Source of the DNA: an uncultured Gammaproteobacteria bacterium
Lineage (GTDB): Bacteria > Patescibacteriota > Patescibacteriia > Veblenbacterales > UBA10138
Reading direction: 5' to 3'
DNA length: 64,000 nt
NCBI GenBank assembly: GCA_964348825.1
Contig: CAYGDX010000001.1
Location: 90,909-154,908, forward strand
In this document: in pieces, positions 3,569-63,055 of the stretch
Layout: each line of letters begins with the position of its first letter
Numbering within the stretch: position 1 is the stretch's first letter
Position numbers and translations under genes: made by a program
The notes under the pieces: model-generated
What the model was told of the DNA's origin: nothing
Database searches by the model: none
The model's input: only the letters and a program-made list of their open reading frames with translations

Positions 3569-3809
3569 TTGTGTAAGAAAATAATAATTTCTTCGTTAAA
3601 TAAATTAGCAGTAGATTTTAAAATCCGAATATCTAATACTGAAATCCGAAAAAGATGGAGTTTTGTATTTTGGGCTTAGAATTTTGGATTTATTTAGGAT
3701 TTAGAAATTAGAAATTAGGATTTTTTTGGATTCCCGCCTCCGCGGGAATGACAATTACTAAAACTATTAGCTATTTGCCATTTACTATTGGCTAAATTAT
3801 AATATCCTC

Positions 3810-4076
3810 ATGCCTCTTGAATTAAGTGAATCAACCCAAGTACGTATGATGCTGGATGAAAACCAGCGTTTACTTGAAGAAATAAAGAAAAATACCGAAC
3901 GCACGCGGAAATATATTCTGTGGAGTCAGATTTTTTTGGTAGTTAGAATGCTTATAATAATTTTGCCATTGGTTGCCGGATTTATATTCCTCCGCCCATT
4001 TTTTAAAGAAGCGGGTAGTGCGTATGAAGATATAATCGGCAGTGGCGCGCTGGAAGTGCTGAAGAGTTTAAAGTAA
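3810..4076 (+). CDS. Hypothetical small membrane protein
   Basis: 88-aa ORF with one hydrophobic helix (IFLVVRMLIIILPLVAGFIFL). No homolog recognised. Confidence 0.3.
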   Translation: MPLELSESTQVRMMLDENQRLLEEIKKNTERTRKYILWSQIFLVVRMLIIILPLVAGFIFLRPFFKEAGSAYEDIIGSGALEVLKSLK

Positions 4077-4187
4077 GGGTGTAGCGTGTAGGGGGTAGGG
4101 TGTAGTATGCTTGCCCCGTGATCGTCATCAGACGATTTTACGGGGTCATTGCGAGGAGCGAGTAAGGCGAGCGACAAAGCAATCTCT
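4074..4187. repeat. Composite MITE-like repeat: G-rich gggtgtag segment + ccccgt..acgggg hairpin + gtcattgcgag..agcaatc (family A)
   Basis: Same modules recur at 23397-23448, 26011-26100, 26221-26262, 26535-26622, 38466-38545, 52855-52900, 53806-53980. Confidence 0.6.
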
Positions 4188-4356
4188 CAAAAGTTTCAAT
4201 GACCAAGTTTAAAGTTCAAATAAATATTCAAAAGTTTCTAAAATTTTAAAATGTTGGAACTTTATTGGAACTTGGAAATTTGAACTTGGGATTTAAACAA
4301 TTTAGACATTTTTAGAAATTAGAGCTTAGAAATTAGTCATTTTTAATCTTTATTTT

Positions 4357-5646: not shown

Positions 5647-5840
5647 ATCCTAAAAAATTCCTCCCCTCAATAGGGGAGGTTAGGTGGGGTAATAAATAAA
5701 GCAGCCTGCAAAGGCTGTTTTTAAATTTCTAATCTCTAATAACTAATTTCTAAAAATGACTAAAATTTTAAAAATTAATTTATTGAAAATTGATTTAAAA
5801 TTGTAAATTTAAAATTAAACACTAAATACTACACCCTAAC

Positions 5841-6449
5841 CTACTTCCTAACCACTTTCGCCACTACAATTTCACTGGCCGTTATATCTTGCCCAGCAAC
5901 TTCCGCATTAGTTGTAATAGTTACAGTTTGTCCTACTTGCAAAGCACTAGCAGTAATTTTTTTAGTTAAAGTTGTAATTTTAGGTGCACCACCGGCGCTT
6001 GGAATAACCACAGTAGTGGTGCGTTCAGTAATTTTAGTTTGGGGAGTATAGTTAATAGTAAAATTTCCGGCTCGCAAAGTAGTTGGTGCGCCATTTTTAC
6101 TCGCACTCTGCATTTGCAAAACAAAAGATGATTTAGTTGCGCTCGTAATCGTTCCGCTTAAAGTGTAAGTAATTGGTGGGGTGATTGCCCCGTTATCATT
6201 TATTGGCGCTATCGGTTCAGTGTCAACTGACTTCGAACTATCAACTTCTAACTTTAAACTACCATCTATTAACTCTTGGCTATCGACTAATGACTCATCA
6301 TTGCTATTTGCTATTAGCGATTTGCTAGTAGCCACTTGCCACGCCTTTCCATAACCCAAATTATAACTAACAGCCGAACTTGCGCCCGCCAAAATTAAAG
6401 CCAGTATTATTACCAACCCAATTCCACGGGAGTTAAGAATAATGTCCAT
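5841..6449 (-). CDS. Hypothetical secreted/membrane-anchored protein, Thr/Ser-rich
   Basis: N-terminal signal/anchor (IGLVIILALILAGASSAVS), low-complexity T/S-rich body. The only minus-strand gene in the first 11 kb. Confidence 0.4.
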   Translation of the reverse strand: MDIILNSRGIGLVIILALILAGASSAVSYNLGYGKAWQVATSKSLIANSNDESLVDSQELIDGSLKLEVDSSKSVDTEPIAPINDNGAITPPITYTLSGTITSATKSSFVLQMQSASKNGAPTTLRAGNFTINYTPQTKITERTTTVVIPSAGGAPKITTLTKKITASALQVGQTVTITTNAEVAGQDITASEIVVAKVVRK

Positions 6450-6888
6450 ATGTTTAAAATCCTAATTCCTAATCCGCCCGCTGGCGGACTAAATTCTAAA
6501 TAAATCTTAAAATGTCGAAATCCAAATGATTAAATTTTTTGTGATTTGGATCTTTTGGATAAATAAACTACCCCCTACACGCTACACCCTTAATTAATCA
6601 TACAATAAATTACCCAAAAGTTACAATTTTTACCAAACAAATTCCTCCTTTGTAAAAGGAGGTGACGAAGCCCAAGCGAGGCGGAGGATTTACAAAAGAA
6701 GAAAATTATACACAGCTTGTTGCAATGCTATGTTCTTGGTATAATAAAAGTAGTAATTCACCTATAAGTAAGTTCAAATTTCCAATGACCAATAAAGTTC
6801 CAACATTTTAAAATTTTAGAAATTTTTGAATATTTATTTGAACTTTGAACTTGGGATTTGGAACTTTATAACCAAATATTAGATTTTT

Positions 6889-11005: not shown

Positions 11006-12649
11006 CTATTTTAAAAGTAACATTTTTTTTGTTATTGATACTTCTATCGTGTGCAACCGATAGAAGTAAATACCAGAATTAAGGTGTGAAGCATCAAAAG
11101 TCACTTCATGGCTACCTGACTCCATGACTTTATTGACTAACTCCGCTATTTCTTCACCAAGTATATTATAAACTTTCAAAGTTACCAACTTCGAACTGTT
11201 TACTTCGAACTTAATACTCGTTGAAGGATTAAACGGATTCGGATAATTCTGCAACAATTTCATTTGACTTGGGATTTCGGATTTCGGATTTCGAATTTCC
11301 ATTTCTGGTGGAGGCGGTGGCATTTCACTGCTATGCACAATTCGAATTTGTGTACCCGGAATTATATCATAGAGCGACATTGTAAATTCACCAGTTTGTT
11401 CCACTTTTACCCAATACCCTTGTCCGGGATACAGCGTATCAACATTCTTATACCCATTCTCATAAGCGTAGAACGATGAGGTTACAATTCCCGGTGGATT
11501 ACTGGTGATGTAATTAGTCGGCATTTTTCCAGTGAGTGATCCAATCATATTCCACCCTTCTTGCACTTGAATAGTGGTGGAAGTTGAACTGTCGCCGGTA
11601 ATGCTTACATATTGTGTATTCGCAAATTTTAACCAGTACCCCTTGCCAACTTCTAACGTCTCCATAGAGTGGTAGCCATCATTATAACCAAATGCTTGTG
11701 ATATCGCTGTTGGAAATACATTTGCCACACTCGCATCGGTTACGTTTTTAGGTAGCGATACAATATTCCATCGCTTGTTAAAGCGATAGGCTACTTCTGG
11801 CAGAATATACACGCCAAAATTAAGTGTTGGATACAAAGTATCGCCGATTGTGACATATGAAGTATCAACTTCAGGATATGTTTGTGTCCAGCCATTTATT
11901 TTTTCGGCATATATTTTGTAAGTACCGCGCGGTATATTTTGGAAAATATAATTTCCAGATGAATCAGTAGTGGTTGAATCAAGTGTTGTATCTTTAATAT
12001 ATACCTTCCAATCCGCTGTTGGTTGCTCATCGTTATCATGGGTAGTATTTTGATTTTCATCTATAAATATATTTCCAGCCAAACTGCCAATTTCCCCGCC
12101 TAAGTAAAAGGTGTCTGGGTTGACTACTTTTCCATAGTTAGAAAAATCATCCAAATAAAAGGTATAATTTCCCACTAAAGTAGTAAATAAATAATTGATA
12201 ACCAAACTTACTGAATCAAATTGGTGAAGTATATCTGATCCTTCGTAGCTTTTTTTGATATAAGTCCAGTTTGTACCGGCATTTACTGGTGTTAAATTTC
12301 CAACTTGTATAGTAGTATCATTGTGATGTATTAATATGTACAAAACAGGATATATATTATTAGCGACGGTTCCCTTTTCCCAATAATTAAACCAAGTATC
12401 AAATTCGACTAATTGCGTAAATTTACGTCCGTAAATCACACTATCAGTTTGACTATCAGCTGTGGTGGTTATGCAAACTGAATTAGTGGAATTATGTCCA
12501 GTATTGGTAATGTAAATACTATCTGAGGCCATTGTAGAATATTGGCGCACCCATTTATCTTGCTCGGCTTTTGTTTCCGTTGGTAAAGCCAATGGCATGA
12601 TTGCGATTATGAAAATCGCCATTGTTAATATGTTTGTGAAGTTTTTCAT
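11006..12649 (-). CDS. Secreted protein with carboxypeptidase-regulatory-like (prealbumin-fold) domain and T9SS-type C-terminal sorting domain
   Basis: Signal peptide MKNFTNILTMAIFIIAIMPLALPTETKA. SGNYIFQNIPRGTYKIY beta-sandwich motif. C-terminus LQNYPNPFNPSTSIKFEV...LKVYNILGEEIAELVN...GSHEVTFDASHLNSGIYFYRL...TKKMLLLK matches the Por secretion C-terminal domain consensus. Contains an in-frame aaatccgaaatccgaaat repeat coding EIRNPKSEI. Confidence 0.7.
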   Translation of the reverse strand: MKNFTNILTMAIFIIAIMPLALPTETKAEQDKWVRQYSTMASDSIYITNTGHNSTNSVCITTTADSQTDSVIYGRKFTQLVEFDTWFNYWEKGTVANNIYPVLYILIHHNDTTIQVGNLTPVNAGTNWTYIKKSYEGSDILHQFDSVSLVINYLFTTLVGNYTFYLDDFSNYGKVVNPDTFYLGGEIGSLAGNIFIDENQNTTHDNDEQPTADWKVYIKDTTLDSTTTDSSGNYIFQNIPRGTYKIYAEKINGWTQTYPEVDTSYVTIGDTLYPTLNFGVYILPEVAYRFNKRWNIVSLPKNVTDASVANVFPTAISQAFGYNDGYHSMETLEVGKGYWLKFANTQYVSITGDSSTSTTIQVQEGWNMIGSLTGKMPTNYITSNPPGIVTSSFYAYENGYKNVDTLYPGQGYWVKVEQTGEFTMSLYDIIPGTQIRIVHSSEMPPPPPEMEIRNPKSEIPSQMKLLQNYPNPFNPSTSIKFEVNSSKLVTLKVYNILGEEIAELVNKVMESGSHEVTFDASHLNSGIYFYRLHTIEVSITKKMLLLK

Positions 12650-15674: not shown

Positions 15675-15759
15675 GGTTTTACTTTAGTAATTAATGTATT
15701 AATGGTATAATAAATTGAGAATGACTGATTTTTCAAAAATCCGAAATTTATTTATTAAA

Positions 15760-15838
15760 CACTAGAACATTTAAACATTAGAACATTATTAATAAAAAAC
15801 TTTTTGTTCTTATGATCTAGTGATCTAATGTTCTAGTG
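15760..15838. repeat. Palindromic cactagaac / gttctaatgtt element (family D)
   Basis: cactagaacatttaaacattagaac...gttcttatgatctagtgatctaatgttctagtg. Related copies at 17944-18030, 21878-21912, 22270-22307, 27845-27925, 34888-34975, 43570-43632, 58048-58100, in both orientations. Confidence 0.65.
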
Positions 15839-15860
15839 ATAATTCCTTACTTCAACCATC

Positions 15861-16925: not shown

Positions 16926-17011
16926 GTTTAAATTCTAATATCGAATATCGAAATTCGAAAAAATTTAAAATTAATTTAGGATTTCGGATTTAGTGCTTCG
17001 GATTTTAAACT

Positions 17012-17935: not shown

Positions 17936-18055
17936 GAGTTTTTCACTAGAACATTAGATCACTAGATCATAAGAACAAAAAGTTTTTTATTAATAATGTT
18001 CTAATGTTTAAATGTTCTAGTGTTCTAATGAATAAGATTTAGAATTTTAATTACT

Positions 18056-21874: not shown

Positions 21875-21912
21875 ATAATCATAATAACATTAGATCACTA
21901 GAACATTAGAAC

Positions 21913-22272
21913 ATGAGTCAAGAATTCAGAGAGCAGTTAAAAAAGAAAATGGACGAATATGTAAAATTAGTTTATCGCGTGACTAAAAATTATCCCCGCG
22001 ACGAGTTATATGGAGTAACTTCACAATTAAGAAGATCAACCCTATCCGTGATATTAAATTATTTAGAGGGTTATGCCAGGCGCCGAATTCCAACTTGCTA
22101 TCATTTTTGGGAAATATCTTATGGTTCGTTACAAGAAAGTAGATATTTATTAGATTTATCATTAAATGAAAATTATTTATTAATTGAAAATCACAAAACA
22201 TTAAGTGTTTTAGCTGATGAAATTAGTGCTATGCTCTGGCAATCCTTGAAGAATTTAGAAAAATACAAATAG
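21913..22272 (+). CDS. Four-helix-bundle protein (23S rRNA intervening-sequence protein family)
   Basis: SQLRRSTLSVILNYLEGYARRR matches the 'four helix bundle protein' family signature. Bracketed on both sides by family D repeats. Confidence 0.7.
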   Translation: MSQEFREQLKKKMDEYVKLVYRVTKNYPRDELYGVTSQLRRSTLSVILNYLEGYARRRIPTCYHFWEISYGSLQESRYLLDLSLNENYLLIENHKTLSVLADEISAMLWQSLKNLEKYK

Positions 22273-22307
22273 TTAATGTTTAAGTGTTCTAATGTTTTAA
22301 TGTTCAA

Positions 22308-23390
22308 GTGTTTATGTCCACCACCGACTCCTTAACCATCAATCGCTTGCTCACTGAAGCCGCAGAAAGGCAGGTATCTGACCTTCATTTTACTGTTGGT
22401 GCAAATCCAGCCGCGAGGCGTGACGGCAAGCTTGAAACATTAAACGCCGAGCCACCCGTCACCGAAGAATTTATGAAAGGGTTGGTCGAATTTTTTATTC
22501 CGGAGAATAAGAGAGCTCGTTTTGCCAGCGCGCAAACTTTAACCTTAACTTATAATTTTGGCACACGCGCTCGTTTTCGGGTGCACGGAAGCTACCAAAA
22601 GGGTTATCCAGCTTTAGATTTACATTATGTACCATGGCAAGCGCCCGACGTTACAACTATGGGTTTGCCTAAAATTTTACTTAATTCTATAAAAGAAAAA
22701 GAGGGATTGATTCTTTTGAGTGGTTTGCAGGGGTCAGGCCGTAGTGCTACGCTCGCGGCGCTACTTGATAATATTAATCATACACAAGCTAAACATATTG
22801 TAACGATTGAAGATCCAGTGGAGTATTTACTGACCAACGATAAATCATTTATCAAACAAAAAGATGTCGGTGATGATATTCCAAGTGTGGAAGATGCTTT
22901 GGGTGGCCTTAAAGATGAAGATGTAGATGTGCTAGCGATTGATGTACCGCTTAATATGGCGGCTTGGCGCGAAATTTTTACACGGGCGCGGAGCGGCACT
23001 TTAGTTTTTGTGGCGATGGAAGCCGATACTTCAGTGCGGGCGCTAGAATCACTTATTTTAAGTTGGCCGGGTGCTGAAGCTGATAGTTTAAAACAATTAT
23101 TAAGCGAAACACTTCTCATTGCTACTTCACAGCGCTTAGTGCCACGCGTTGGCGGTGGTAAGGTAATGGTAGTAGAATGTTTACTTGGTAATACGCCGGT
23201 TAAATCATTAATTCGCGATGGTAAGATTTTACAACTCCAAAATGTACTGGAATTATCGCGTGAAGATGGTATGGTGTCACTCGAAAAAAGATTGTCTGAT
23301 TTAGTAAAAACTGGAGAAATTACACAAGAAGATGCAGTAGCTCACGCTGTGAACAAAGAGGTGATTGGGTCGATGTTGCGGGTGAAGTAA
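22308..23390 (+). CDS. pilT: PilT-like retraction-ATPase homolog with degenerate catalytic motifs
   Basis: PilT-length GspE-family core. Walker A is GLQGSGRSAT (Lys to Arg, Pro to Gln). Walker B region DEDVDVLAIDVP lacks the catalytic Glu. His-box GTLVFVAMEA lacks the His. Confidence 0.7.
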   Translation: MFMSTTDSLTINRLLTEAAERQVSDLHFTVGANPAARRDGKLETLNAEPPVTEEFMKGLVEFFIPENKRARFASAQTLTLTYNFGTRARFRVHGSYQKGYPALDLHYVPWQAPDVTTMGLPKILLNSIKEKEGLILLSGLQGSGRSATLAALLDNINHTQAKHIVTIEDPVEYLLTNDKSFIKQKDVGDDIPSVEDALGGLKDEDVDVLAIDVPLNMAAWREIFTRARSGTLVFVAMEADTSVRALESLILSWPGAEADSLKQLLSETLLIATSQRLVPRVGGGKVMVVECLLGNTPVKSLIRDGKILQLQNVLELSREDGMVSLEKRLSDLVKTGEITQEDAVAHAVNKEVIGSMLRVK

Positions 23391-23641
23391 TTTTTAGGGT
23401 GTAGCGTGTAGGGTGTAGTTCGTCATTGCGAGCTTCAGCGAAGCAATCCCTAGTAAATCCCCAAATCCCAATCCCTAAGATTGAATTTTAAATTATAAAT
23501 TTTAAGTCAATTTTTAATTAAAACATTTAGTTTTTGATTAAAAACCCGTAAAGGTCTCGTGGAGACCCACGCGTTTCTTTACGAGATTTAAAATTAAAAA
23601 TTTAGTTATTTTTAGAAATTAGATATTAGAAATTTTCGTTC

Positions 23642-24850: not shown

Positions 24851-24894
24851 AGTAAAATCCTAAATCCTAAACCCTAAATTCTAAACAATATCAA

Positions 24895-25979: not shown

Positions 25980-26274
25980 TGGTATGATTAGTGATAGATT
26001 GGGTGTTAATGAGCAGTTGTCATTGCGAGTGAGTCATCAGACGAGCGACGATTTGTCCGCCGTAGCTTTAGCGAAGGTGGAAGCAATCTATCAAAATCAC
26101 TAATAACTAATTCCTAATTTCTAAAAATTCCCAAGACCCAAATCCCAAAATTTAGACATTAGTCATTAGATATTTTTAGAAATTAGATATTAGACATTAG
26201 AAATTTATTTTTTAGAGATTGCCACGCCCTCGCTCTTTTCGCTCGGGCTCGCAATGACATAACACTCTTACTCT

Positions 26275-28664: not shown

Positions 28665-28839
28665 TTTAACGAGTAAGTATTATTGTCATTCTGAGCCACA
28701 GTGAAGAATCTTTAAATTTTGAAAATTTCCAATGACCAAGTTCCAATTTCCAATAAATTTTCAATGATTTAAAATTTTCAAACATTGGAACTTTATTGGG
28801 ATTTTGAACTTTGAACTTGGGATTTAAACAACTTAGATT

Positions 28840-30430: not shown

Positions 30431-32671
<2,241 letters not shown>

Positions 32672-33165: not shown

Positions 33166-33392
33166 TTAAGTAAGAGTAAGAGCTTAGAGCTGTGCCCCGT
33201 ACTGTTTCCACTGAAGTGGAATCTAGTACGTGGGTAAGAGTGGCTTGCCCCGCGTAGTTTTAACGAAGTGGGGTCATTCCCGCGGAGGCGGGAATCCAGG
33301 AACAAAAAATCCTAAATAAATCTAAAATCTTAAATTCAAAATTTTTAAACATTTAGTTATTTGGATTTGATTTGACATTTAGATTTTGAAAT

Positions 33393-35570: not shown

Positions 35571-35793
35571 ATTTAAAATCCTAAATCCGAATATCTAAAT
35601 CCTAAATAAATCCCAATGATTAAAAGCCAAAATTGAATTTTAAATTATAGATTTTAAATCAATTTTTAATGACTTAATTTTAAAACATTTAAATATTTAT
35701 TAATTTAATCATTGAATAAAAATTTAAAATTAAAAATTTTAGTTATTTTTTAGAAATTAGATATTAGAGATTAGAAATTTTGAAAATTGCTTT

Positions 35794-38476: not shown

Positions 38477-38680
38477 GTGGTAGCATGTAGCTTGTAGTGG
38501 TTGTCATTGCGAGAAGCGAGTTAAACGAGCGACAAAGCAATCACTTAAAATCACTAATAACTAATTCCTAATATCTAATAATGACTAATGACTAAAATAA
38601 AAAAATTAGACATTCGTCCGCCAGCTGGCGGATTGGGATTTTTTAGAAATTAGATATTAGAGATTAGTCATTCTAAAATA

Positions 38681-43572: not shown

Positions 43573-43635
43573 CATTAGATCGCTAAATCATTAAAACAAA
43601 AAATTGATTTAATGTTCTAATGTTTAAGTGTTCTA

Positions 43636-43821
43636 ATGAAAGTTGTTAAACATATGACTGACGAAGAAAAAATAAAAAAAATTGAAAGTATTTACGCTGA
43701 TTTTGAACGTAAGTTAGCGCGTCATCGTACACACGTACAGCAGGTAGTGCATAGTACTTTACAGCAAATTGATAAAGAAAAAGCCAACACCATTTTAGAA
43801 TCATTTAAACAAAGCAAATAA
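43636..43821 (+). CDS. Small hypothetical protein (61 aa)
   Basis: ORF between family D and family B repeats. Helical, charged. Confidence 0.25.
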   Translation: MKVVKHMTDEEKIKKIESIYADFERKLARHRTHVQQVVHSTLQQIDKEKANTILESFKQSK

Positions 43822-43959
43822 ATTTGAGCATGTAGTTTATTGTAGGTGTCATTCCCGCGTAGGCGGGAATCCAGAAACAAATTACCTTGAATTGGTATTA
43901 AAAAATTATTAATATATTTTATAGATCCCTGATCAGGTCGGGGATGACAGTAAATTTTT

Positions 43960-52241: not shown

Positions 52242-52621
52242 ACGAATTTTCCTTTCGTTCGTATGTGTTCTATTACTTTCAGGGATCGGTAACCTGCCGA
52301 TTCTGTGTAGCTAGAACGTGTTTTTGAATATTTCACGGACATGGAAATTTCCCAAGCCGTGGCACGAATTAGAACCTGAACTCAAAGTAGGTTAAACCCT
52401 TGCTGCGCAGGCAAGGTCTTTGAGACAGGTTCATTTATATAAAATTGTTAAGTTGCGTTCATTACAGTAAGTGCACCCCACGCATCTTTAACATATCATG
52501 ATAGCGCATCTAGCAAATTCTGTCAAGACCTGTGGAATGAAAAAGTGAGTTTTTGGGCTAATATTAGATAAATTAATTCCCAAGACCCAAGCCCCAAATC
52601 CCAAAAACATTAGATTAATTA

Positions 52622-52850
52622 GGGTTTGTCGTTGTGCCGCCCTGTCGTAGGGTTTGTAGACATCATTTAATTTTAGTGACTTAAAAAAGTAACGCCGCAG
52701 TGAGACCCTCAGAACTTGCGTGTTGTGGTCGCTCTGCATAGCAAGTTCGTTTGGTCGAACCGGCGTTACCACTCGGGCGTGCCAGGGATGGGGTTGTTAG
52801 GGGTAAGGGACGGGCTTCGCCTAACTCCGAGTCCCTACCCCTAACGAAAT
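52622..52850. repeat. Diverged family C-related structured element
   Basis: Shares cctgtcgtagggtttgta and gttcgtttggtcgaaccggcg blocks with 36591-36760. Followed by a family A fragment at 52855-52900. Confidence 0.4.
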
Positions 52851-53066
52851 TAATAAGAGATTGCTTCGCTCGTCTGATGACTCACTCGCAATGACATTTA
52901 TGTTTGTATTATACCCCTCGGCTTGGCTCGGGGTTATCCGCTTTTTACAATAAATAAATTCTAGAAAGCGGATAAAAAAACAGAGTTGGAAAATTGAGGA
53001 TTAAATTAATTTTAATCCAGAAAATTCCAACTCTATAGATTATTCGTCGATGACTTATAGTGCCAT

Positions 53067-54936: not shown

Positions 54937-55026
54937 AGTAGACATTCACTAAGAAATCCGAAGCACGAATATCGAAATTCGAAAATTTTTTAGGATTTCG
55001 GATTTAGAATTTAGGATTTTGTCTTA

Positions 55027-55408
55027 GGGGGTGTTTACAATTTGCTAGTTCATTAAAATTATTTTCGGCAGGTGGTAGTGAGATCTACCTAAAAAGCTCA
55101 ACCTACAAATGCCAATTCATTTGTCGCTAAAATGAAGAATGCTTTTGCATCTTTATCTTTAGCACCAGTTATGGCCTAAAATCCATAACCGTTTGTTTAG
55201 CCAATGCTCAATAAGTTAAACAAGCGTCATTCATTGAGCTGTGATATGCTATAGTTGATACTTATGTAGCAGTCAAGAACTTTAAGTGTCGGCATTTTAG
55301 AATTTTGTGCGGTTTTTATCTAAAATTTCCTACTTAAATCACACTGAACCTGGAGCCGAAGGTAGTAGTTTGAATTACACACGGGTGCAATTCCCGTCAT
55401 CTCCACCA
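55027..55408 (+). ncRNA. ssrA: Putative tmRNA (ssrA), about 380 nt
   Basis: Directly downstream of smpB. 3' end cgggtgcaattcccg (T-arm-like) + catCTCCACCA (tRNA-Ala-like acceptor 3' strand, discriminator A, CCA). 5' GGGGGTG can pair with CATCTCC including a G3:U70-type wobble. Internal candidate tag ORF gcc aat tca ttt gtc gct aaa atg aag aat gct ttt gca tct tta tct tta gca cca gtt atg gcc TAA (ANSFVAKMKNAFASLSLAPVMA*). Confidence 0.45.
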
Positions 55409-55823: not shown

Positions 55824-56394
55824 TTTTTATCGTCCCCGTTATCGGGTGAATCAATATATTAGAATCCCTGAAGTTCAGTTAATAGATGAAACAGGGAAAC
55901 CATGTGGCATTGTGCCAACAGTGGAAGCTTTGCGCCGTGCACAAGAAGTCGGGCTTGATTTAGTGGAAGTAAACCCAACTGAGCGTCCTTCGCTTTGCAA
56001 AATAATGGACTGGGGACAATTTCAGTACAAGCAGAAAAAAATGTTGCAGGCCCAAAAAGTTAAAGCCCACAAAGTAGCGCTTAAAGGTATTCGGTTAAGC
56101 TTAAAAATTGGTGAACACGATCGGCAAGTGCGAATAGATCAATCAAAAAAGTTTTTGGATGAAGGGCATCACGTGCGACTGGAAATGATTTTGCGTGGGC
56201 GTGAAAAGGGTCGCGGTGATTTAGCCCGTGAAATTATGCAAAAATTTGTAGCGGATTTAGGTGAAGGCATTCAAGTGGAAAGCCCATTAGCCCGCCAAGG
56301 CGGTAATGTTAGTATGCAGGTGGTAAAGAAGGTGGGGACGAAGGCAAAAGAGGAAAAGAAAGAGGAAAGTGAGTTAAAAATGACTAATAACTAA
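55816..56394 (+). CDS. infC: Translation initiation factor IF-3
   Basis: IRIPEVQLIDETGKPCGIVPTVEALRRAQEVGLDLVEVNPTERPSLCKIMDWGQFQYKQKK matches IF-3 N- and C-domains. Non-ATG start is likely (listed TTG at 55816 overlaps upstream ORF; an in-frame ATT at 55858 is a candidate), as is typical for infC. Confidence 0.85.
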   Translation: MRNFYRPRYRVNQYIRIPEVQLIDETGKPCGIVPTVEALRRAQEVGLDLVEVNPTERPSLCKIMDWGQFQYKQKKMLQAQKVKAHKVALKGIRLSLKIGEHDRQVRIDQSKKFLDEGHHVRLEMILRGREKGRGDLAREIMQKFVADLGEGIQVESPLARQGGNVSMQVVKKVGTKAKEEKKEESELKMTNN

Positions 56395-56606
56395 TGCCTA
56401 ATTTCTAAAAAATCCTAAATTTTAATGTCTAATTCCCAAATAAATTTTAAAATCCTAATACCCAAAAACTAAAACTTTTAGGATTTACGATTTGGGATTT
56501 ATTTAGGATTTCGGATTTAGGGCTTAGGATTTTAATAATTCCCTTGACTATATTGCTTAAATTCTGTATTATTTGATAGCTATTAAATTGTCTATTTTTC
56601 ATACCT

Positions 56607-56801
56607 ATGAAAGTTAAAACTCACAAAGCTACTGTAAAAAGGTTTCACGTAACATCAGGTCGCAAGTTGATGAAGCGTACTGCTGGTCAGAATCATTTTA
56701 ATTCTCGTGAACCAGGCGGCGTAACACGCGCTAAGCGTCGCGACGTGGAAATTGCTAAAGTAAATGTACCAGCGTTACGCAAATTAATCCCGGGCTCTTA
56801 A
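56607..56801 (+). CDS. rpmI: 50S ribosomal protein L35
   Basis: 64 aa, MKVKTHKATVKRFHVTSGRKLMKR... basic. Position between infC and rplT. Confidence 0.8.
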   Translation: MKVKTHKATVKRFHVTSGRKLMKRTAGQNHFNSREPGGVTRAKRRDVEIAKVNVPALRKLIPGS

Positions 56802-56845
56802 TTAGTTTTAGGATTTCGGATTTAGAATTTAGGATTTATTATTTT

Positions 56846-58149: not shown

Positions 58150-59874
58150 ATGTTATCTCTTAAACTACAAAATGAACTATATAAATTAGCCCGCGAACAC
58201 TATCAATTAAAGCCAATTGAAGTGGAAGTGGTGCCGACGCGTGATATGGCGCACGGTGATTTTACGAGCAATGTAGCAATGAAAGTAGCTTCACGCTGGG
58301 GGGTAACACCGCGCGTGGCCGGTGAAACATTACTGCAAGCTCTTAATGCTTCAAAAGTTATTACTAAGTACTGCGCCAAAGTTGAAATCGCGGGCGCGGG
58401 TTTTATTAATTTTTATTTAAAACCGGAAATTTTATTATCTATTCTATCAGAGCTAACTAAAAGAGAAAATTTATTTAAGGCACAAAAAATTATTGTGGAA
58501 TATTCTTCGCCTAATATTGCGAAGCCGATGCACATTGGGCATATTCGTTCCACGATTATTGGCGAAGCGGTAGCGAATTTGTATGAGCAGTTGGGCGCGA
58601 AAGTTATCCGCCTAAATCATTTAGGTGATTGGGGTACACAATTTGGAAAATTAATCGCCGCTTATAAAATGTGGGGTTCGAAATCCGCCGTGCATAAAAA
58701 TCCAATTGATGAATTATTAAAACTTTACGTACGTTTTCATGAGGAGATGAAAACAAATTTAGAGCTTGAAAAGCAAGGGCAAGATGAATTTAGAAAATTA
58801 GAACAAGGTGATAAAACAAATCGCAGTTTGTGGAATTGGTTTAAAAAAGAGTCACTTAGGGAATTTGATAAAATGTACAAACGATTAGGTATAAAATTCA
58901 CAGCGCTCACTGGCGAAAGTTTTTATGAAGCTAAACTCACTCCCTTGGTGCGGGAATTATTAAAACGAAAAATTGCTAAACAAAATGCCGACGGCTCAAT
59001 TGTGGTTCATTTGGAAAAAGAATCACTGCCGCCGTGTTTAATGCAAAAATCCGATGGGGCTTCACTTTATGCCACGCGTGATGTGGCCACGATCAATTAT
59101 CGAGTACAGCATTATAAACCAGCACAAATATTTTATGTGGTAGGTAATGAACAGTCACTTCATTTTGAGCAAGTGTATGCTGTGGCGCGTCGTTTAGGTT
59201 ATGTTGGTAGTACGCAGTTAGAGCATCTTAAATTTGGTACTATTTTGGGTGATGATGGCCATAAATTTGCCACTCGCGAAGGCCGATTGATTAAATTAGA
59301 TGAAGTACTGGCTGAGGCAGTTACACGGGCGCGAGCGATTATTGAGGTAAAAAATTCTAAACTGCCTACCAAAATTAAAGAGCAAGTAGCCGAAGCGGTT
59401 GGCGTGGGAGCTTTAAAATATAATGATTTGTCGCAAAATCGCCAAACCGATATTACGTTTAGTTGGGATAAAATGCTGAGTTTGAGTGGTAACAGTTCGC
59501 CGTATTTACAATATAGTTATGTAAGGTTGCAGAGTATTCTTAGAAAAGGGGGTAGGGTGAAGGGTGTGGGAAGTAGAGTTAAATTTGATAAAAATATTCT
59601 AAATAATTTAACAGCGAGTGATTTGAATGTGCTTAGAATATTAATTCGCTATCCTGAAGCAATTATGCAGGCGGCGCGGGAGAATGGCCCGCATCTTTTG
59701 GCACAATATTTATATGACCTAGCTAATGCGATTAATTCTTTTTACCAAAATTCGCCAGTGCTTCAGGCACGCGAACCATTAAAAAGTTTTCGTTTGGGTT
59801 TAATTAAAAATGTGGCAGATGTTTTAGCGCAAGGGTTAGGGATTTTGGGGATAAAAGTGGTGGAACGAATGTAG
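58150..59874 (+). CDS. argS: Arginyl-tRNA synthetase
   Basis: HIGH motif (PMHIGHIRST), class I Rossmann core, C-terminal DALR-type anticodon-binding region. An in-frame G-rich repeat segment at 59546-59580 encodes GGRVKGVGSRV. Confidence 0.9.
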   Translation: MLSLKLQNELYKLAREHYQLKPIEVEVVPTRDMAHGDFTSNVAMKVASRWGVTPRVAGETLLQALNASKVITKYCAKVEIAGAGFINFYLKPEILLSILSELTKRENLFKAQKIIVEYSSPNIAKPMHIGHIRSTIIGEAVANLYEQLGAKVIRLNHLGDWGTQFGKLIAAYKMWGSKSAVHKNPIDELLKLYVRFHEEMKTNLELEKQGQDEFRKLEQGDKTNRSLWNWFKKESLREFDKMYKRLGIKFTALTGESFYEAKLTPLVRELLKRKIAKQNADGSIVVHLEKESLPPCLMQKSDGASLYATRDVATINYRVQHYKPAQIFYVVGNEQSLHFEQVYAVARRLGYVGSTQLEHLKFGTILGDDGHKFATREGRLIKLDEVLAEAVTRARAIIEVKNSKLPTKIKEQVAEAVGVGALKYNDLSQNRQTDITFSWDKMLSLSGNSSPYLQYSYVRLQSILRKGGRVKGVGSRVKFDKNILNNLTASDLNVLRILIRYPEAIMQAARENGPHLLAQYLYDLANAINSFYQNSPVLQAREPLKSFRLGLIKNVADVLAQGLGILGIKVVERM

Positions 59875-60012
59875 GGTTTAATGTCAAATTACAAATGTCA
59901 AATATCAAATCAAATCCAAATGTTTAAAATCCAAAATTTTGTCATTTAATCGTTAAATCATTTGACATTGATTTGTCATTTGGATTTTAAAATTTGAAAT
60001 TAAAATTTATTT

Positions 60013-62925
60013 ATGATCAATTTTCCTGAATTAGAAGAAAAAATATTAAAGTTCTGGGAGGAGAACGATATATTTGCTAAAACCATAGAGCAGGGGCGAA
60101 AAAATAATTTGCCGCGATTTGTTTTTTGGGAAGGGCCGCCAACTGCCAATGGGAAGCCAGGGCTTCACCATGTGCTCGCTCGTGCTTTTAAAGATTTAAT
60201 TCCGCGTTATAAAACCATGCGGGGATTTTTGGTGGAAAGAAAAGCGGGTTGGGATACACAAGGATTGCCAGTGGAGTTACAAGTAGAAAAGGCCTTGGGA
60301 TTTAAAGGTAAACCAGATATTGAAAAATACGGCGTAGCGGAATTCAATGCGAAGTGTAAAGAAGACGTGTGGAAATACAAAGCTGATTGGGAAAAATTAA
60401 CCAAGCGGATTGGTTTTTGGGTAGATTTAGAAAAGCCATATATAACTTACGAAAATTATTATATTGAAAGTTTGTGGTGGATTTTGAAAAAAGTTTGGGA
60501 GGCAGAATTGCTTTATAAAGATTATAAAGTGTTGCCGCATTGCCCACGGTGTGGTACGGCCCTTTCCAGTCACGAAGTAGCACAGGGATATAAATCTGTC
60601 ACAGACGTGGCCGTGACAGTTAAGTTCAAAGTTCAAAGCCCAAAGTTCAAAGATACGTTTATTCTTTCTTGGACGACGACGCCGTGGACGTTGCCGGGGA
60701 ATGTGGCGCTCGCTGTAGGTGCGGATGTTACTTATTTAAAAGTTAAATTAAGTAATGAGTATTTTATTTTAGCTAAAGACCGATTAGGAATTTTATCTGA
60801 TCAAGAATTTAAAATAGAAGAGGAAATAAAAGGCCAAGATTTGGTTGGTTTAGAATATGAGCCATTGTTTGATATTAAGCCTTTGCAAAATGATAAATCA
60901 CATCGGGTATACGCGGCGGATTTTGTAACTACAACTGATGGTACAGGTGTAGTGCATACGGCTGTGATGTATGGTGAAGATGATTTTAATTTAGGCACGA
61001 CTGTGGGGTTGCCAAAATATCACACCGTAGATGAAGCTGGTAAGTTTACCCAAGACGTGCCGCAGTGGGCAGGTAAATTTGTGAAAAATAAAGAAGTTGA
61101 ACAAGGAATTATTGATGATTTAAAAACGCGTGGGTTGCTACTTAAAGATGAACTGTATACTCATGATTATCCATTTTGTTGGCGCTGTAGCACGCCGCTT
61201 TTGTATTATGCTAAACCATCTTGGTTTATTAAAATGTCGGCTTTACGTGAAGATTTAAAGTTGGCTAATGAAAAAATAAATTGGTATCCAGAGCATATTA
61301 GAAATGGACGTTTTGGTGAATGGCTTGAAAATGTTAAAGATTGGGCAATTTCGAGAGAAAGATATTGGGGAACGCCACTGCCACTGTGGGTGTGTCAAAT
61401 GTGTAATAAAGTTGCTTGTGTAGGAAGTTTAATTGAATTAGCAGAACTAGTAAAAAATCCGAAATCCGACCCGCCCGCCGACGAGGCAGGAATCCGAAAT
61501 CCGAAATTTGATTTGCACCGTCCGTTTATTGATGAAATTGTTTTGCCATGTTCGTGCGGTGGGGAAATGTGTCGTACGCCGGAAGTGGCCGATTGTTGGT
61601 TTGATTCAGGGAGTATGCCACTCGCGCAGTGGGGCTATCCGCACTTGGCCACTAGTTCCTCGGAGCTAGCCACTAGTTTTCCAGCGGATTATATTGCCGA
61701 AGCAATTGATCAAACACGCGGTTGGTTTTATGTCTTACTTGCGGTGTCAACATTGCTTAAAAAATCTGGTGTCATAAAAGAAATTGATCAAGATAAGATT
61801 ACTCCGCCGTATAAAAATGTTATTTGTTTGGGGCACATCAATGACAAACAGGGTCAAAAAATGTCTAAATCAAAAGGCAATATTGTGGATCCGTGGGAAG
61901 TGATAAATAAATATGGCGTAGATGCTTTGCGTTTTCATCTCTACACCAATAATCAACCAGGCGAGCCGAAAAATTTTGATATTAAGTCGGTTGACGAAGT
62001 AGTGAAAAAAACATTTTTGATTTTGATGAATGTGGTGACGTTTTATGAATTGTATAATTTTCAGGGTGTAGGGAATAGGGTGAAGGGTGTAGGGCAGAAT
62101 GTGATGGATAGGTGGATTTTGGCACTTTTACAAGATGTTGCAAATAAAGTCAGCGCGCATTTGGATAAGTATGAAATTACTGAAGCAGGGCGTTTGCTCG
62201 CTGATTTCGTAACTGATTTATCTACTTGGTATGTACGGCGTAGTCGCGATCGGTTTAAAGCCGGCGGTGAAGAATTAAGCCAAGCGGTACAAACTTTGGG
62301 GTATGTTTTGGGTGAACTCTCAAAACTATTGGCGCCCTTTGCGCCATTTACAGCTGAAGAAATTTACAAGAAAATTGGTGGCAAAGAAGAATCGGTGCAT
62401 TTAGCCAATTGGCCGGAGGTTAAAGATTTGTCAGCTGAACAAAATCAATTTTTAAGCGAGATGGCAAAATTAAAACAAGTGGTAGAAATAGCTTTGGCCA
62501 AGCGCGCTGAAGCGCAAATTAAAATTCGTCAACCACTTCGTTCGCTCAAAGTATCTGGCTTAGATTTGTCTCCGGAGTTAAAGCAAGTATTGGCAGATGA
62601 GGTAAACGTGATGGAGGTTAAATTAAGTGAAGGTGAGTTTGATGTGGAATTGGATACTGAATTAGATGACGAACTTAAAGCGCTTGGTACTTTGCGTGAT
62701 TTTACGCGCGAAGTAAATGCTTTGCGTAAAAAACTTGGATTTACAATTAAAGATTCAGCTGAGCTTGCAGTATTTAGTCCGATAGAGTTTCAGGAGTTAC
62801 TGCAAAAATATAATGATGAAATTTTAAAATCAACTTTAACTAATAAAATTAAATTGACCGATGTAGTTCAAGACCACGAGTTTGAAATTGGTGATATAAA
62901 AATTAGCATTGGATTAATAAAATAA
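60013..62925 (+). CDS. ileS: Isoleucyl-tRNA synthetase
   Basis: HIGH-type PGLHHV, WDTQGLPVE, YPFCWRCSTPLLYYAKPSWFI, KMSKSKGN. In-frame repeat-derived segments at 61456-61510 (NPKSDPPADEAGIRNPKF) and 62064-62096 (GVGNRVKGVGQNV). Confidence 0.9.
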   Translation: MINFPELEEKILKFWEENDIFAKTIEQGRKNNLPRFVFWEGPPTANGKPGLHHVLARAFKDLIPRYKTMRGFLVERKAGWDTQGLPVELQVEKALGFKGKPDIEKYGVAEFNAKCKEDVWKYKADWEKLTKRIGFWVDLEKPYITYENYYIESLWWILKKVWEAELLYKDYKVLPHCPRCGTALSSHEVAQGYKSVTDVAVTVKFKVQSPKFKDTFILSWTTTPWTLPGNVALAVGADVTYLKVKLSNEYFILAKDRLGILSDQEFKIEEEIKGQDLVGLEYEPLFDIKPLQNDKSHRVYAADFVTTTDGTGVVHTAVMYGEDDFNLGTTVGLPKYHTVDEAGKFTQDVPQWAGKFVKNKEVEQGIIDDLKTRGLLLKDELYTHDYPFCWRCSTPLLYYAKPSWFIKMSALREDLKLANEKINWYPEHIRNGRFGEWLENVKDWAISRERYWGTPLPLWVCQMCNKVACVGSLIELAELVKNPKSDPPADEAGIRNPKFDLHRPFIDEIVLPCSCGGEMCRTPEVADCWFDSGSMPLAQWGYPHLATSSSELATSFPADYIAEAIDQTRGWFYVLLAVSTLLKKSGVIKEIDQDKITPPYKNVICLGHINDKQGQKMSKSKGNIVDPWEVINKYGVDALRFHLYTNNQPGEPKNFDIKSVDEVVKKTFLILMNVVTFYELYNFQGVGNRVKGVGQNVMDRWILALLQDVANKVSAHLDKYEITEAGRLLADFVTDLSTWYVRRSRDRFKAGGEELSQAVQTLGYVLGELSKLLAPFAPFTAEEIYKKIGGKEESVHLANWPEVKDLSAEQNQFLSEMAKLKQVVEIALAKRAEAQIKIRQPLRSLKVSGLDLSPELKQVLADEVNVMEVKLSEGEFDVELDTELDDELKALGTLRDFTREVNALRKKLGFTIKDSAELAVFSPIEFQELLQKYNDEILKSTLTNKIKLTDVVQDHEFEIGDIKISIGLIK

Positions 62926-62934
62926 CTTACTCGT

Positions 62935-63055
62935 TTGGTGTCATTCCCGTGAAAACGGGGATCTAGGAATTTAAAAAATCATTTATTATTGGATTCCCGC
63001 CTCCCTCCTTCGTTTATTAAAACTTCGGCAGCACAAGTCGCGGGAATGACAGAAA
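62935..63055. repeat. Family B repeat pair (gtcattcccg-hairpin-ggggatc ... ggattcccgc-hairpin-gcgggaatgac)
   Basis: Same gtcattccc / gggaatcc termini as copies at 3725-3755, 30490-30560, 32683-32740, 33268-33300, 43845-43940. Confidence 0.6.

What the first reader, a model, noticed from the sequence alone, without database searches (positions are those of the whole stretch)
59546..62096. Repeat-derived peptide segments inside argS and ileS; aatccgaaat tandem motif coding IRNPK in two unrelated proteins
The G-rich intergenic module (gggtgtagggtgtag) occurs in-frame in argS (59546-59580, GGRVKGVGSRV) and ileS (62064-62096, GVGNRVKGVGQNV). The AT-rich aaatccgaaatccgaaat module occurs in-frame in ileS (61456-61510, ...GIRNPKF) and, on the opposite strand, in the T9SS-CTD protein gene (about 11265-11300, EIRNPKSEI). 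Essential aminoacyl-tRNA synthetases therefore tolerate several MITE-derived inserts.
Basis: seen in the sequence. Interest (0 to 1): 0.65.

Follow-up and report, generated by a model that had tools for sequence, protein, structure and literature searches.

The report
Heptamer repeats translated inside tRNA synthetases
In this tiny-genome (Patescibacteria) bacterium, the 7-base tandem repeats and a small GC-rich hairpin that fill its intergenic DNA also sit in frame in floppy loops of two essential tRNA synthetases and a secreted protein; relatives carry their own 7-base arrays in the same loops, so these are tolerated repeat relics, not classic transposon (MITE) insertions.

Summary
All quoted sequences are at the stated coordinates and far exceed chance (19, 22 and 16 motif matches against 0.65, 0.12 and 1.4 expected).

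The modules are degenerate tandem arrays of 7-nt units (GGGTGTA, AAATCCG, AAGTTCA), not MITEs. Period 7 is specific: 26 arrays against 0-2 for any other period.

Compared with 40-48 close orthologs, the G-rich segments in argS and ileS cause no net length change; they replace hypervariable linkers of constrained length. Only ileS 61455-61507 is a true insertion: an (AAATCCG)n array split by a 21-nt relic of an intergenic GC hairpin. A fourth array (ileS 60622-60652) overlaps the conserved VKFKV codons.

AlphaFold models place all four synthetase segments in coils or turns.

Because 7 and 3 share no factor, an array encodes the same 7-residue peptide in every frame. Every in-frame TAG of the G-rich unit is mutated (both genes read RVKGVG).

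The same loops carry other heptamer arrays in relatives: 18/120 IleRS and 6/120 ArgRS, against 0 in controls.

Best reading: tolerated, probably non-adaptive repeat colonisation of permissive loops. It is a new variant of a known kind (Rickettsia RPEs, cyanobacterial STRRs).

The parts
58150..59874 (+). argS (ArgRS, 574 aa)
   Evidence: ORF. E = 2e-105 to E. coli ArgRS 4oby. Pfam Arg_tRNA_synt_N/tRNA-synt_1d/DALR_1 in orthologs.
59548..59580 (+). Degenerate G-rich heptamer array in argS (GGGGGTA GGGTGAA GGGTGTG GGAAGTA GAGTT), encoding GGRVKGVGSRV. About 79% identical to a perfect (GGGTGTA)n. The in-frame TAG reads AAG. Also a canonical G-quadruplex (G4) motif.
   Evidence: Lies in the coil aa 467-480 with pLDDT below 50 at 471-476. 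No net length change against the closest orthologs.
60013..62925 (+). ileS (IleRS, 970 aa, type-2-like)
   Evidence: ORF. E = 6e-247 to Priestia megaterium IleRS2 8c8w.
60622..60652 (+). ileS site A: AAGTTCA x4.4 array encoding (V)KFKVQSPKFK(D). The first 12 nt are the conserved K-F-K-V codons.
   Evidence: TRF. Strand end plus beta-hairpin turn aa 203-214. Relatives carry AAGTCAA, AAACCCG or AAAATCA arrays, or none.
61455..61469 (+). ileS site B, left half of the AAATCCG array (2.1 units)
   Evidence: The unit equals the native E-K-S-G codon string GAAAAATCCGG of array-free relatives L006/L007.
61470..61490 (+). ileS site B, 21-nt GC-rich core (CCCGCCCGCCGACGAGGCAGG, encoding ~PPADEAG). A decayed in-frame copy of the intergenic hairpin element; deleting it restores a perfect (AAATCCG)4.4 array.
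   Evidence: Homology to 3728-3752(-), 33272-33297, 43848-43872 and 62991-63003(-). Stem lost: z = 0.11 against -2.64 for the intergenic copy. Coil with pLDDT about 50.
61491..61507 (+). ileS site B, right half of the AAATCCG array (2.4 units, IRNPK)
62061..62105 (+). ileS site C: six degenerate G-rich heptamers (42-45 nt, 76% identical to a perfect array; TRF period 21 x2) encoding Q-GVGNRVKGVGQNV-M. All three in-frame TAG positions are changed (CAG, AAG, ATG). Also a canonical G4 motif.
   Evidence: Exactly fills the coil aa 682-696 between helices 657-681 and 697-718. Same length as 34 of 40 sequences.
11266..11299 (-). AAATCCG-type array (4 units, read on the minus strand) in the T9SS-CTD protein gene 11006-12649(-), encoding EIRNPKSEI in the linker before the Por_Secre_tail domain
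4076..4105 (+). Intergenic G-rich heptamer array, starting directly after a stop codon. Representative of 23395-23418, 30435-30470, 6568-6589(-) and 5822-5853(-).
   Evidence: 25/30 identical to ileS site C.
3728..3752 (-). Intergenic GC hairpin gtcATTCCCGCGGAGGCGGGAATCC followed by AAATCCT heptamers. The composite module homologous to ileS site B.
   Evidence: Fold -16.7 kcal/mol, z = -2.64.
56477..56532 (-). Intergenic AAATCCT/AAATCCG array (8 units). Representative of 16974-16993, 24855-24885, 54989-55019 and 56807-56838.
6837..6867 (-). Intergenic AAGTTCA-type array, 16/16 identical to ileS site A. Also 28803-28818(-) and 4205-4220(+).

Best explanation
The organism is a Patescibacteria (CPR) bacterium. 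Its intergenic DNA is built from short tandem arrays of 7-nt units (STRR-like) and small GC-rich hairpins. The same sequence families occupy a few structurally permissive, hypervariable loops of proteins:
- the ArgRS linker at the entry to the anticodon-binding domain;
- three IleRS loops;
- the pre-CTD linker of a secreted protein.

The arithmetic makes this tolerable. Because 7 and 3 share no factor, three units (21 nt) preserve the frame, and an array encodes the same cyclic 7-residue peptide whatever the frame. Only strand and stop content matter.
- Stop-free units survive as they are: AAATCCG gives KSEIRNP and AAGTTCA gives KFKVQSS.
- The G-rich unit (GGGTGTA gives GVGCRV*) survives only where every in-frame TAG, and every Cys codon, has been mutated.

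How the arrays arrive is inferred, not shown. Arrays appear to start at native proto-units or microhomologies (K-F-K-V = AAGTTCAAAGTT; E-K-S-G = GAAAAATCCGG). They would then grow or be overwritten by slippage and/or short-patch ectopic conversion from the many genomic arrays. The GC hairpin then inserts into an array, as it does in intergenic DNA. Selection on loop length, frame and stops filters the outcome, which would explain replacement without length change at two sites.

The peptides themselves are most likely neutral passengers.
For: Shown:
- Period-7 specificity and intergenic concentration of the arrays.
- Motif excess over shuffles.
- Identity of coding copies to intergenic copies: 16/16, 17/17 and 25/30.
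- The hairpin-plus-heptamer composite is homologous between ileS site B and four intergenic copies, and its stem has decayed in the coding copy.
- Cyclic-peptide and stop logic. In-frame TAGs are replaced at 3 of 3 positions in ileS and 1 of 1 in argS, while 3 of 4 out-of-frame TAGs are kept. Both genes share the exact 15-mer TAGGGTGAAGGGTGT, which no intergenic array has.
- All segments sit in coils, turns or low-pLDDT regions or in an inter-domain linker.
- Ortholog alignments show hypervariable sequence, with equal length at argS and ileS site C and excess length at site B.
- The same loops in relatives carry different heptamer arrays or none, with GC palindromes nested in them. States differ between sister taxa.
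- 18/120 IleRS and 6/120 ArgRS proteins contain heptamer-array-encoded 10-mers, against 0/240 reversed controls. All six ArgRS proteins have a hit in this same linker.
- Native seeds are present in array-free relatives.
Against: - No event has been caught in the act. The closest relative is only about 69% identical, and the one close sister pair (P0023/P0031) differs across a 350-nt divergent tract, so it cannot isolate a local event.
- Relatives have strong ileS arrays but roughly ten-fold fewer intergenic arrays. This weakens 'import from intergenic copies' and favours in-situ origin.
- How a TAG-bearing G-rich array could enter an essential gene without a lethal intermediate is unexplained; short-patch conversion is only an inference.
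- Neutrality of the peptides is assumed, not tested. They are Lys/Arg-rich and sit in tRNA-binding enzymes.
Confidence: 0.7

Rival explanations
1. One reading: the segments are insertions of MITE-like mobile elements that transposed from intergenic sites into the genes.
For: The site B GC core is a 21-nt copy of a dispersed intergenic hairpin family, flanked on both sides by AATCCGA. Related GC palindromes are nested at different ileS loops in relatives and also occur intergenically there.
Against: The heptamer arrays are direct tandem repeats without terminal inverted repeats. Two of the three claimed inserts add no length. Site A overlaps conserved codons. Array units match native flanking codons. 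The flanking AATCCGA is simply the continuing array, not a demonstrable target duplication. No transposase link was found or sought.
Confidence: 0.12
2. The segments are adaptive. Either the basic peptides (RVKGVG, KSEIRNP, KFKVQSS) improve tRNA binding, or the G-rich stretches form mRNA or DNA G-quadruplexes that tune expression of the adjacent argS and ileS genes.
For: Only 4 canonical G4 motifs exist in the 64 kb (0.16 expected), and two are the sense-strand argS and ileS segments. In ileS units 1-5, all 6 changes from the consensus fall outside the G-runs. ArgRS linkers of relatives are also Lys/Arg/Gly-rich.
Against: Neither the peptides nor the G-runs are conserved in any relative at these sites. 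Standard RNA folding shows no structure, although that model cannot represent G4s. The loops are predicted to be disordered. The same repeat families are mostly intergenic.
Confidence: 0.1
3. Coincidence: ordinary low-complexity, Lys/Asn-rich loop sequence in an AT-rich genome that only resembles the repeats.
For: A-rich Lys codons (AAA/AAG) easily give pseudo-periodic strings, and site A is partly conserved codons.
Against: The excess is specific to period 7: 26 arrays against 0-2 at other periods. Shuffles give 0.1-1.4 matches against 16-22 observed. The G-rich arrays are not A-rich at all. Reversed-protein controls give 0 of 240.
Confidence: 0.03
4. Phase-variable contingency loci: gain or loss of single 7-nt units would switch the genes on and off.
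For: The unit length is not a multiple of 3, as in classical contingency repeats.
Against: The genes are single-copy essential synthetases, and the arrays are short (2-6 units) and degenerate. An independent assembly is identical.
Confidence: 0.02

Closest known systems
[quoted passage not shown] 2000, as summarised in PMC10969869)
   Same: Dispersed repeat families found both between genes and in frame inside unrelated housekeeping genes. The insertions are compatible with protein fold and function and encode a family-specific peptide.
   Different: RPEs are palindromic elements of about 100-150 bp restricted to Rickettsia. Here the units are 7-nt tandem arrays (17-45 nt in total) plus one 21-nt hairpin relic, in a CPR bacterium. 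Two of four synthetase sites show replacement with no length gain. The same loops are hit recurrently in many lineages by different units.
Cyanobacterial STRR (short tandemly repeated repetitive) heptanucleotide sequences. They are 7-bp repeats of unknown function that form intergenic hairpins (PMC2670836) and also occur inside the RNase P RNA gene (Vioque 1997, title cited in PMC2858038).
   Same: 7-nt unit, short tandem arrays, many dispersed and mostly intergenic copies, inverted array pairs that can form hairpins, and occasional residence inside a variable part of an essential gene. (GGGTGTA)n arrays identical to the window's occur in many cyanobacteria.
   Different: STRRs were defined in heterocystous cyanobacteria with other units (CCCCAGT, TTGGTCA, CAACAGT; from my memory). 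The known intragenic case is an RNA gene. In-frame translation into protein loops, the stop-codon filter and the CPR host are new here.
Small dispersed repeats (SDR) of Nostoc (Elhai et al. 2008, Genome Res 18:1484; reference seen in PMC3116915; the paper itself could not be read)
   Same: From my recollection only: very small (21-27 nt) mobile hairpin-like elements. The 21-nt GC core nested in the ileS site B array and the GC palindromes in L002/L008 behave similarly.
   Different: No sequence relationship was tested. The SDR paper was not available, so the resemblance is a lead, not a test.
REP/REPIN elements (PMC3116915)
   Same: Short GC-rich palindromes present in many intergenic copies.
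   Different: No RAYT transposase was sought or found, doublet (REPIN) organisation was not examined, and here one copy is translated.

Membership tests
MITE | Terminal inverted repeats bounding the element | tested here: not met
   The heptamer segments are direct tandem repeats. The flanks of the site B core are direct (AATCCGA...AATCCGA), not inverted.
MITE | Insertion adds DNA relative to the empty site, with a target-site duplication | tested here: inconclusive
   Net insertion only at ileS site B. argS and ileS site C show no length gain. The apparent 7-nt duplication at site B cannot be told apart from the array's own periodicity.
MITE | Derived from, or mobilised by, an autonomous IS element or transposase | not tested
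   No transposase search was done in this window.
STRR-type heptanucleotide tandem repeats | 7-nt unit in short tandem arrays | tested here: met
   TRF. Period-7 arrays 26 against 0-2 for other periods.
STRR-type heptanucleotide tandem repeats | Many dispersed copies, predominantly intergenic, able to form hairpins with inverted arrays | tested here: met
   21 of 26 arrays lie in the 19% intergenic DNA. Inverted array pairs are visible, for example 30572-30647. Hairpin formation by array pairs was not folded.
STRR-type heptanucleotide tandem repeats | Host range (heterocystous cyanobacteria) and canonical units | tested here: not met
   The host is Patescibacteria and the units differ. However, the G-rich unit array occurs in many cyanobacteria and other phyla.
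Rickettsia palindromic elements | Palindromic element of about 100-150 bp, family-specific conserved peptide, Rickettsia host | tested here: not met
   Segments are 17-45 nt, tandem rather than palindromic, in a CPR host.
Rickettsia palindromic elements | In-frame residence in unrelated genes at positions compatible with the fold | tested here: met
   This is a resemblance in how it works, not membership.
Phase-variable simple-sequence contingency locus | Length polymorphism in unit steps that switches the reading frame of a dispensable or surface gene | tested here: inconclusive
   The genes are essential aaRS. The only second assembly is identical. No population reads were available.
REP/REPIN (for the GC hairpin only) | Short GC-rich palindrome, multiple intergenic copies | tested here: met
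   At least 4 intergenic copies. Stable fold, z = -2.64.
REP/REPIN (for the GC hairpin only) | Associated RAYT transposase and inverted doublets | not tested
   Not examined.

The most novel reading that the evidence does not exclude
Across Patescibacteria, and perhaps more widely, an ongoing process that generates heptanucleotide arrays repeatedly rewrites the same surface loops of essential enzymes. If so, non-coding tandem repeats are a regular source of new peptide sequence. The arrays would not be mere junk: identical (GGGTGTA)n arrays occur in many phyla and are enriched just downstream of gene ends, which points to an unrecognised conserved mechanism or function, such as a 3'-end element with stops in all three frames or a G-quadruplex element. 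The argS and ileS copies would be by-products of that process, or co-opted from it.
Probability: 0.25. Interest if true: 0.75.

Novelty: new variant of a known kind. Interest (0 to 1): 0.5.

Why it matters
- It extends 'selfish or neutral repeats inside essential genes', so far best known from Rickettsia RPEs, to the CPR radiation and to a different repeat class, 7-nt tandem arrays.
- The arithmetic is unusually transparent: the peptide is independent of frame, 21 nt is frame-neutral, and a visible stop-codon filter operates.
- It identifies recurrent permissive loops in IleRS and ArgRS. This is useful for alignment and phylogeny of CPR marker genes, and for protein engineering.
- For annotators: odd low-complexity peptides such as KSKIKNQ, IRNPKSE or RVKGVG in CPR proteins are repeat relics, not domains.
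- The side observation that identical G-rich heptamer arrays are shared across distant phyla raises an open question about where such arrays come from.

Tried and rejected
- 'HLATSSSELATS' (61640-61680, GCCACTAGTTCC-like) looked repeat-derived. It has the same length and is partly conserved in relatives (HLATSSSQLATS in P0028), and the motif is not above chance (7 against 2.5). It is native sequence.
- The 6-aa IleRS extra 'EIDQDK' (about 61780-61800) is an ordinary indel shared with some relatives and is not heptamer-based.
- The sister pair P0023/P0031 was fetched to catch a clean site A replacement. The genes are 89% identical, but a tract over alignment columns ~590-940 is divergent and probably recombinant, so nothing can be said about the local mechanism.
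- The ArgRS linker DNA of P0144 (L011) and L002 shows only weak period-7 signal and is not claimed.
- I considered whether TTC codon use in K-F-K marks array overwriting. It holds for 3 of 4 array-bearing loci but L009 uses TTT, so it is not used as evidence.
- Literature: no paper on heptamer arrays in CPR was found. The 2025 STR survey does not mention Patescibacteria or heptamers. Elhai 2008 is not held.
- Rfam finds only tmRNA and one tRNA in the window; no known RNA family covers the repeats.
- Standard RNA folding of the G-rich coding segments shows no structure. G4s are outside that model.
Full report
**1. Observation**

The window encodes argS (58150-59874, 574 aa) and ileS (60013-62925, 970 aa).
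- argS 59546-59580: GGRVKGVGSRV.
- ileS 62064-62102: GVGNRVKGVGQNV.
- ileS 61455-61510: KNPKSDPPADEAGIRNPKF.
- Minus-strand gene 11006-12649: EIRNPKSEI at 11266-11299. This protein has a Por_Secre_tail domain at aa 469-543, so the array lies in the linker just before it.

The motifs are far above chance, at 19, 22 and 16 matches against 0.65, 0.12 and 1.37 expected from dinucleotide shuffles. An independent assembly is identical over 3,967 nt, so this is not an assembly artefact.

**2. What the modules are**

All of them have a 7-nt period. TRF lists dozens of period-7 arrays. A self-match scan finds 26 arrays at period 7 and 17 at period 14, but only 0-2 at any other period from 4 to 13. Of the 26, 21 lie in the 19% of the window that is non-coding.

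Intergenic spacers are chains of such arrays interleaved with GC-rich hairpins. The units include GGGTGTA/GCGTGTA, AAATCCT/AAATCCG, TTAGAAA, AAGTTCA, AATGTCA and GAATCTA.

These are therefore STRR-like heptanucleotide arrays, not MITEs. They lack terminal inverted repeats.

**3. Insertion or not?**

The organism is a Patescibacteria (CPR) bacterium. Its closest IleRS and ArgRS orthologs are 60-70% identical. I aligned 40 IleRS and 48 ArgRS sequences.

- **ileS site C (G-rich).** The aligned linker region is 34 aa in 34 of 40 sequences, including the window. The sequence is hypervariable but the length is fixed, so there is no net insertion. This agrees with the equal-length alignment to 8c8w.
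- **argS (G-rich).** The aligned region is 52 aa in the window and 50-55 aa in the 21 closest relatives (45-48 in most of the more distant ones). Again there is no net insertion. The linker is K/G/S/A-rich everywhere.
- **ileS site B (IRNPK).** The aligned region is 47 aa, against 36-42 in 37 of 39 relatives (46 and 51 in two that carry their own inserts). This is a real insertion.
- **ileS site A.** VKFKV is conserved. The array runs from those codons into the following turn, and lengths in relatives range from 29 to 61 aa in the aligned region.
- **'HLATSSSELATS'.** This is conserved native sequence.

**4. Structural position**

The AlphaFold2 model of IleRS (mean pLDDT 78.5) places the segments as follows:
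- site A at a strand end plus the turn 208-214;
- site B in the coil 480-490, with pLDDT about 50;
- site C exactly in the 15-residue coil 682-696 between helices 657-681 and 697-718.

The ArgRS model (mean pLDDT 89) places the segment in the coil 467-480, with pLDDT below 50 at 471-476.

**5. Relationship to intergenic copies**

- Site A is 16/16 identical to the arrays at 6837-6852(-) and 28803-28818(-).
- The AAATCCG arrays are 17/17 identical between ileS and the T9SS gene, and 17/18 identical to intergenic arrays.
- Site C is 25/30 identical to 4076-4105.
- The site B core (61470-61490) is exactly 21 nt. Deleting it restores a perfect (AAATCCG)4.4 array.
- That core is homologous to an intergenic hairpin family, gtcATTCCCGCGGAGGCGGGAATCC, which is itself followed by AAATCCT heptamers (3728-3752(-), about 33272-33297, about 43848-43872, 62991-63003(-)).
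- The intergenic hairpin folds well (-16.7 kcal/mol, z = -2.64), whereas the ileS copy has lost its stem (z = 0.11).

Site B is thus a composite module, with an in-frame relic of a hairpin nested inside a heptamer array.

**6. Why heptamers can be translated**

Because 7 and 3 share no factor, any array yields the same cyclic 7-aa peptide in all three frames:
- AAATCCG gives KSEIRNP.
- AAGTTCA gives KFKVQSS.
- AAAAATC gives KNQKSKI.
- GGGTGTA gives GVGCRV*, with a stop every 7 codons.
- The commonest intergenic units (AAATCCT, TTAGAAA) have stops on both strands.

Coding arrays use only stop-free units and orientations. Set against a perfect array, ileS site C is 34/45 identical. All three in-frame TAG positions are changed (CAG, AAG, ATG), both in-frame TGT (Cys) codons are replaced, and 3 of 4 out-of-frame TAGs are kept. 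argS is 26/33 identical, with its in-frame TAG changed to AAG and both TGT codons replaced.

Both genes read RVKGVG and share the exact 15-mer TAGGGTGAAGGGTGT, which no intergenic array has. This is the signature of derivation from the TAG-bearing array under a coding filter.

**7. Recurrence in relatives**

I fetched syntenic argS-ileS-recO loci from ten relatives.

- **Site A.** Relatives have AAGTCAA x3 plus a GC palindrome (L002), AAACCCG x4 (L003), AAAATCA x5 (L006, L009), or the non-repeat KPGQKIGDFTTDD (L004, L007, L008, L010).
- **Site B.** Relatives have GAATCAT-type units (L001), AAAAATC/AAAAGTC (L002, L005), the same with a nested GC palindrome (L008), degenerate GAATCTA (L003, L004), or no array (L006, L007, L009, L010).
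- **Site C.** L002 has a perfect palindrome insert (GTCGCTCGCC-caaa-GGCGAGCGAC).

On a neighbour-joining tree the states are scattered, and sister taxa differ.

A protein-level scan looked for 10-aa windows equal, with at most 1 mismatch, to the translation of a stop-free heptamer array. It finds hits in 18 of 120 IleRS and 6 of 120 ArgRS, against 0 of 240 reversed controls. The IleRS hits cluster at sites A and B. All six ArgRS proteins have a hit in the same linker (aa 463-491). Units recur across lineages, including AAGTTCA, AAGTCAA, AATGTCA and the reverse orientation of GCGTGTA. These loops are recurrent hotspots across the phylum.

**8. Origin (inference)**

Array-free relatives encode E-K-S-G at site B as GAAAAATCCGG. 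That string contains both AAATCCG (the window's unit) and AAAAATC (the unit in L002, L005 and L008). At site A the native K-F-K-V codons AAGTTCAAAGTT are 1.7 units of the window's array. Relatives have strong ileS arrays despite roughly ten-fold fewer intergenic arrays.

This favours in-situ seeding by native proto-units, or capture guided by microhomology, followed by slippage. The G-rich segments and the GC core have no native counterpart and look imported or converted from ectopic copies. Short-patch conversion filtered by selection would explain the unchanged length and the absence of in-frame stops, but this is not shown.

**9. Comparison with known systems**

- *Rickettsia RPEs.* Functionally the closest precedent: repeat families inserted in frame into housekeeping genes at fold-compatible sites (PMC10969869).
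- *Cyanobacterial STRRs.* Structurally the closest: 7-bp repeats of unknown function forming intergenic hairpins (PMC2670836), also present inside the RNase P RNA gene (Vioque 1997, cited).
- *Nostoc small dispersed repeats and REP/REPINs.* The nested GC hairpins recall these, but for the former this rests on my memory only, since the paper was not available.

The case is a member of neither RPEs nor canonical STRRs; host, size and units all differ. I found no report of heptamer arrays in CPR genomes or of their translation.

**10. Side finding**

The 22-mer GGGTGTAGSGTGTAGGGKGTAG is expected about once by chance in 596 Gb. It occurs in more than 119 stretches from many phyla, including cyanobacteria, Planctomycetota, Gemmatimonadales, Nitrospirota, Bacteroidota and CPR. 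It is often found directly after a stop codon and followed by other heptamer arrays. Of 115 testable arrays, 26% start within 40 nt downstream of a long same-strand ORF, against 4% for random positions.

The argS and ileS segments are also two of only four canonical G4 motifs in the window, where 0.16 are expected. This keeps a functional reading open, at low probability.

**11. Verdict**

They are not MITEs, two of the three are not net insertions, and one array overlaps conserved codons.
- Novelty: a new variant of a known kind.
- Interest is moderate (0.5). The arithmetic is neat and the hotspots recur phylum-wide, but the concept has precedent and no function is indicated.

Noticed in passing
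Loci L012-L130 (genome contigs); window 4076-4105, 23395-23418, 30435-30470: The exact 22-mer GGGTGTAGSGTGTAGGGKGTAG occurs in more than 119 stretches from very distant phyla: many cyanobacteria, Planctomycetota, Gemmatimonadales, Nitrospirota, Bacteroidota, Methylomirabilota and CPR. It often sits right after a stop codon and is followed by other heptamer arrays. 26% of arrays lie within 40 nt downstream of a long same-strand ORF, against 4% for random positions. L088 (another Patescibacteria) carries the identical imperfect 29-mer of window 4077-4105.
   Followed up: partly
window 59548-59570(+), 62064-62094(+), 52775-52814(+), 52579-52602(-): Only four canonical G-quadruplex motifs exist in the 64 kb (0.16 expected from shuffles). 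Two are the sense-strand argS and ileS array segments. The intergenic G-rich arrays (alternating GGG/GCG) do not meet the strict motif.
   Followed up: partly
window 4312-4336, 23612-23634, 26176-26205, 35750-35779, 38643-38667: TTAGAAA/TTAGATA heptamer arrays end about 8-70 nt (mostly 8-21 nt) upstream of start codons (4357, 23642, 26275, 35794, 38681). AAATCCT arrays follow stop codons (24855, 35576). G-rich arrays start within 6 nt of stops. This suggests an ordered, strand-specific intergenic architecture.
   Followed up: no
window 15755-15840, 17943-18030, 21886-21914, 22274-22314, 43608-43638: A second repeat class with period 8 (TAATGTTC / AACATTAG and TCACTAGA units) flanks several genes, often as inverted pairs.
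   Followed up: no
window 52315-53066: A gene-free stretch of about 750 nt holding a CCCAAGA heptamer array (52579-52605), a long GC-rich inverted repeat (GTTAGGGGTAAGGGAC...GTCCCTACCCCTAAC, about 52797-52845) and a cattgcgag-type hairpin. There is no Rfam match.
   Followed up: no
window 54989-55019 and 55027-55408; 56379-56838: The tmRNA gene (Rfam RF00023, 72 bits) begins 8 nt after a TTTAGGA heptamer array. The spacer 56379-56838 is almost entirely arrays plus two 25-nt tandem repeats (56416-56466, 56557-56612).
   Followed up: no
window 4140-4190, 23425-23450, 52860-52895: Another GC-rich hairpin family (gtcattgcgag...cgaagcaatc) recurs in spacers. It would translate to peptides like VIASEAKQS, which I recall (from memory) seeing as spurious ORFs in metagenomes.
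   Followed up: no
L009 9924-12896 vs L010 7850-10858 (ileS of P0023 and P0031): Two ileS genes that are 89% identical contain a tract of about 350 nt (alignment columns ~590-940, start of the editing domain) with only about 20-55% identity. This suggests recombination that also swapped the site A state (array against non-repeat).
   Followed up: partly
L002 10718-10800, 12293-12316, 15173; L008 2056-2085: In relatives, GC-rich palindromes (CCGCCCAAGGCGGATCCGCC..., GTCGCTCGCCcaaaGGCGAGCGAC) are translated inside ileS at three different loops, giving up to 25 extra residues (PPKADPPPSARHLAEPRLWRGVLAE). One copy lies inside the recO reading frame, and copies also occur intergenically (L002 4785, 5214, 13204).
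   Followed up: partly
Proteins P0041, P0047, P0114: Some Patescibacteria IleRS homologs are about 1,150 aa long and carry an extra PF00300 (histidine phosphatase) domain, an apparent gene fusion.
   Followed up: no
window 61780-61800 (IleRS aa ~590-596): A 6-aa insertion (EIDQDK) is shared with a phylogenetically scattered subset of relatives (P0004, P0016, P0021, P0026, P0011). It is not heptamer-based.
   Followed up: no
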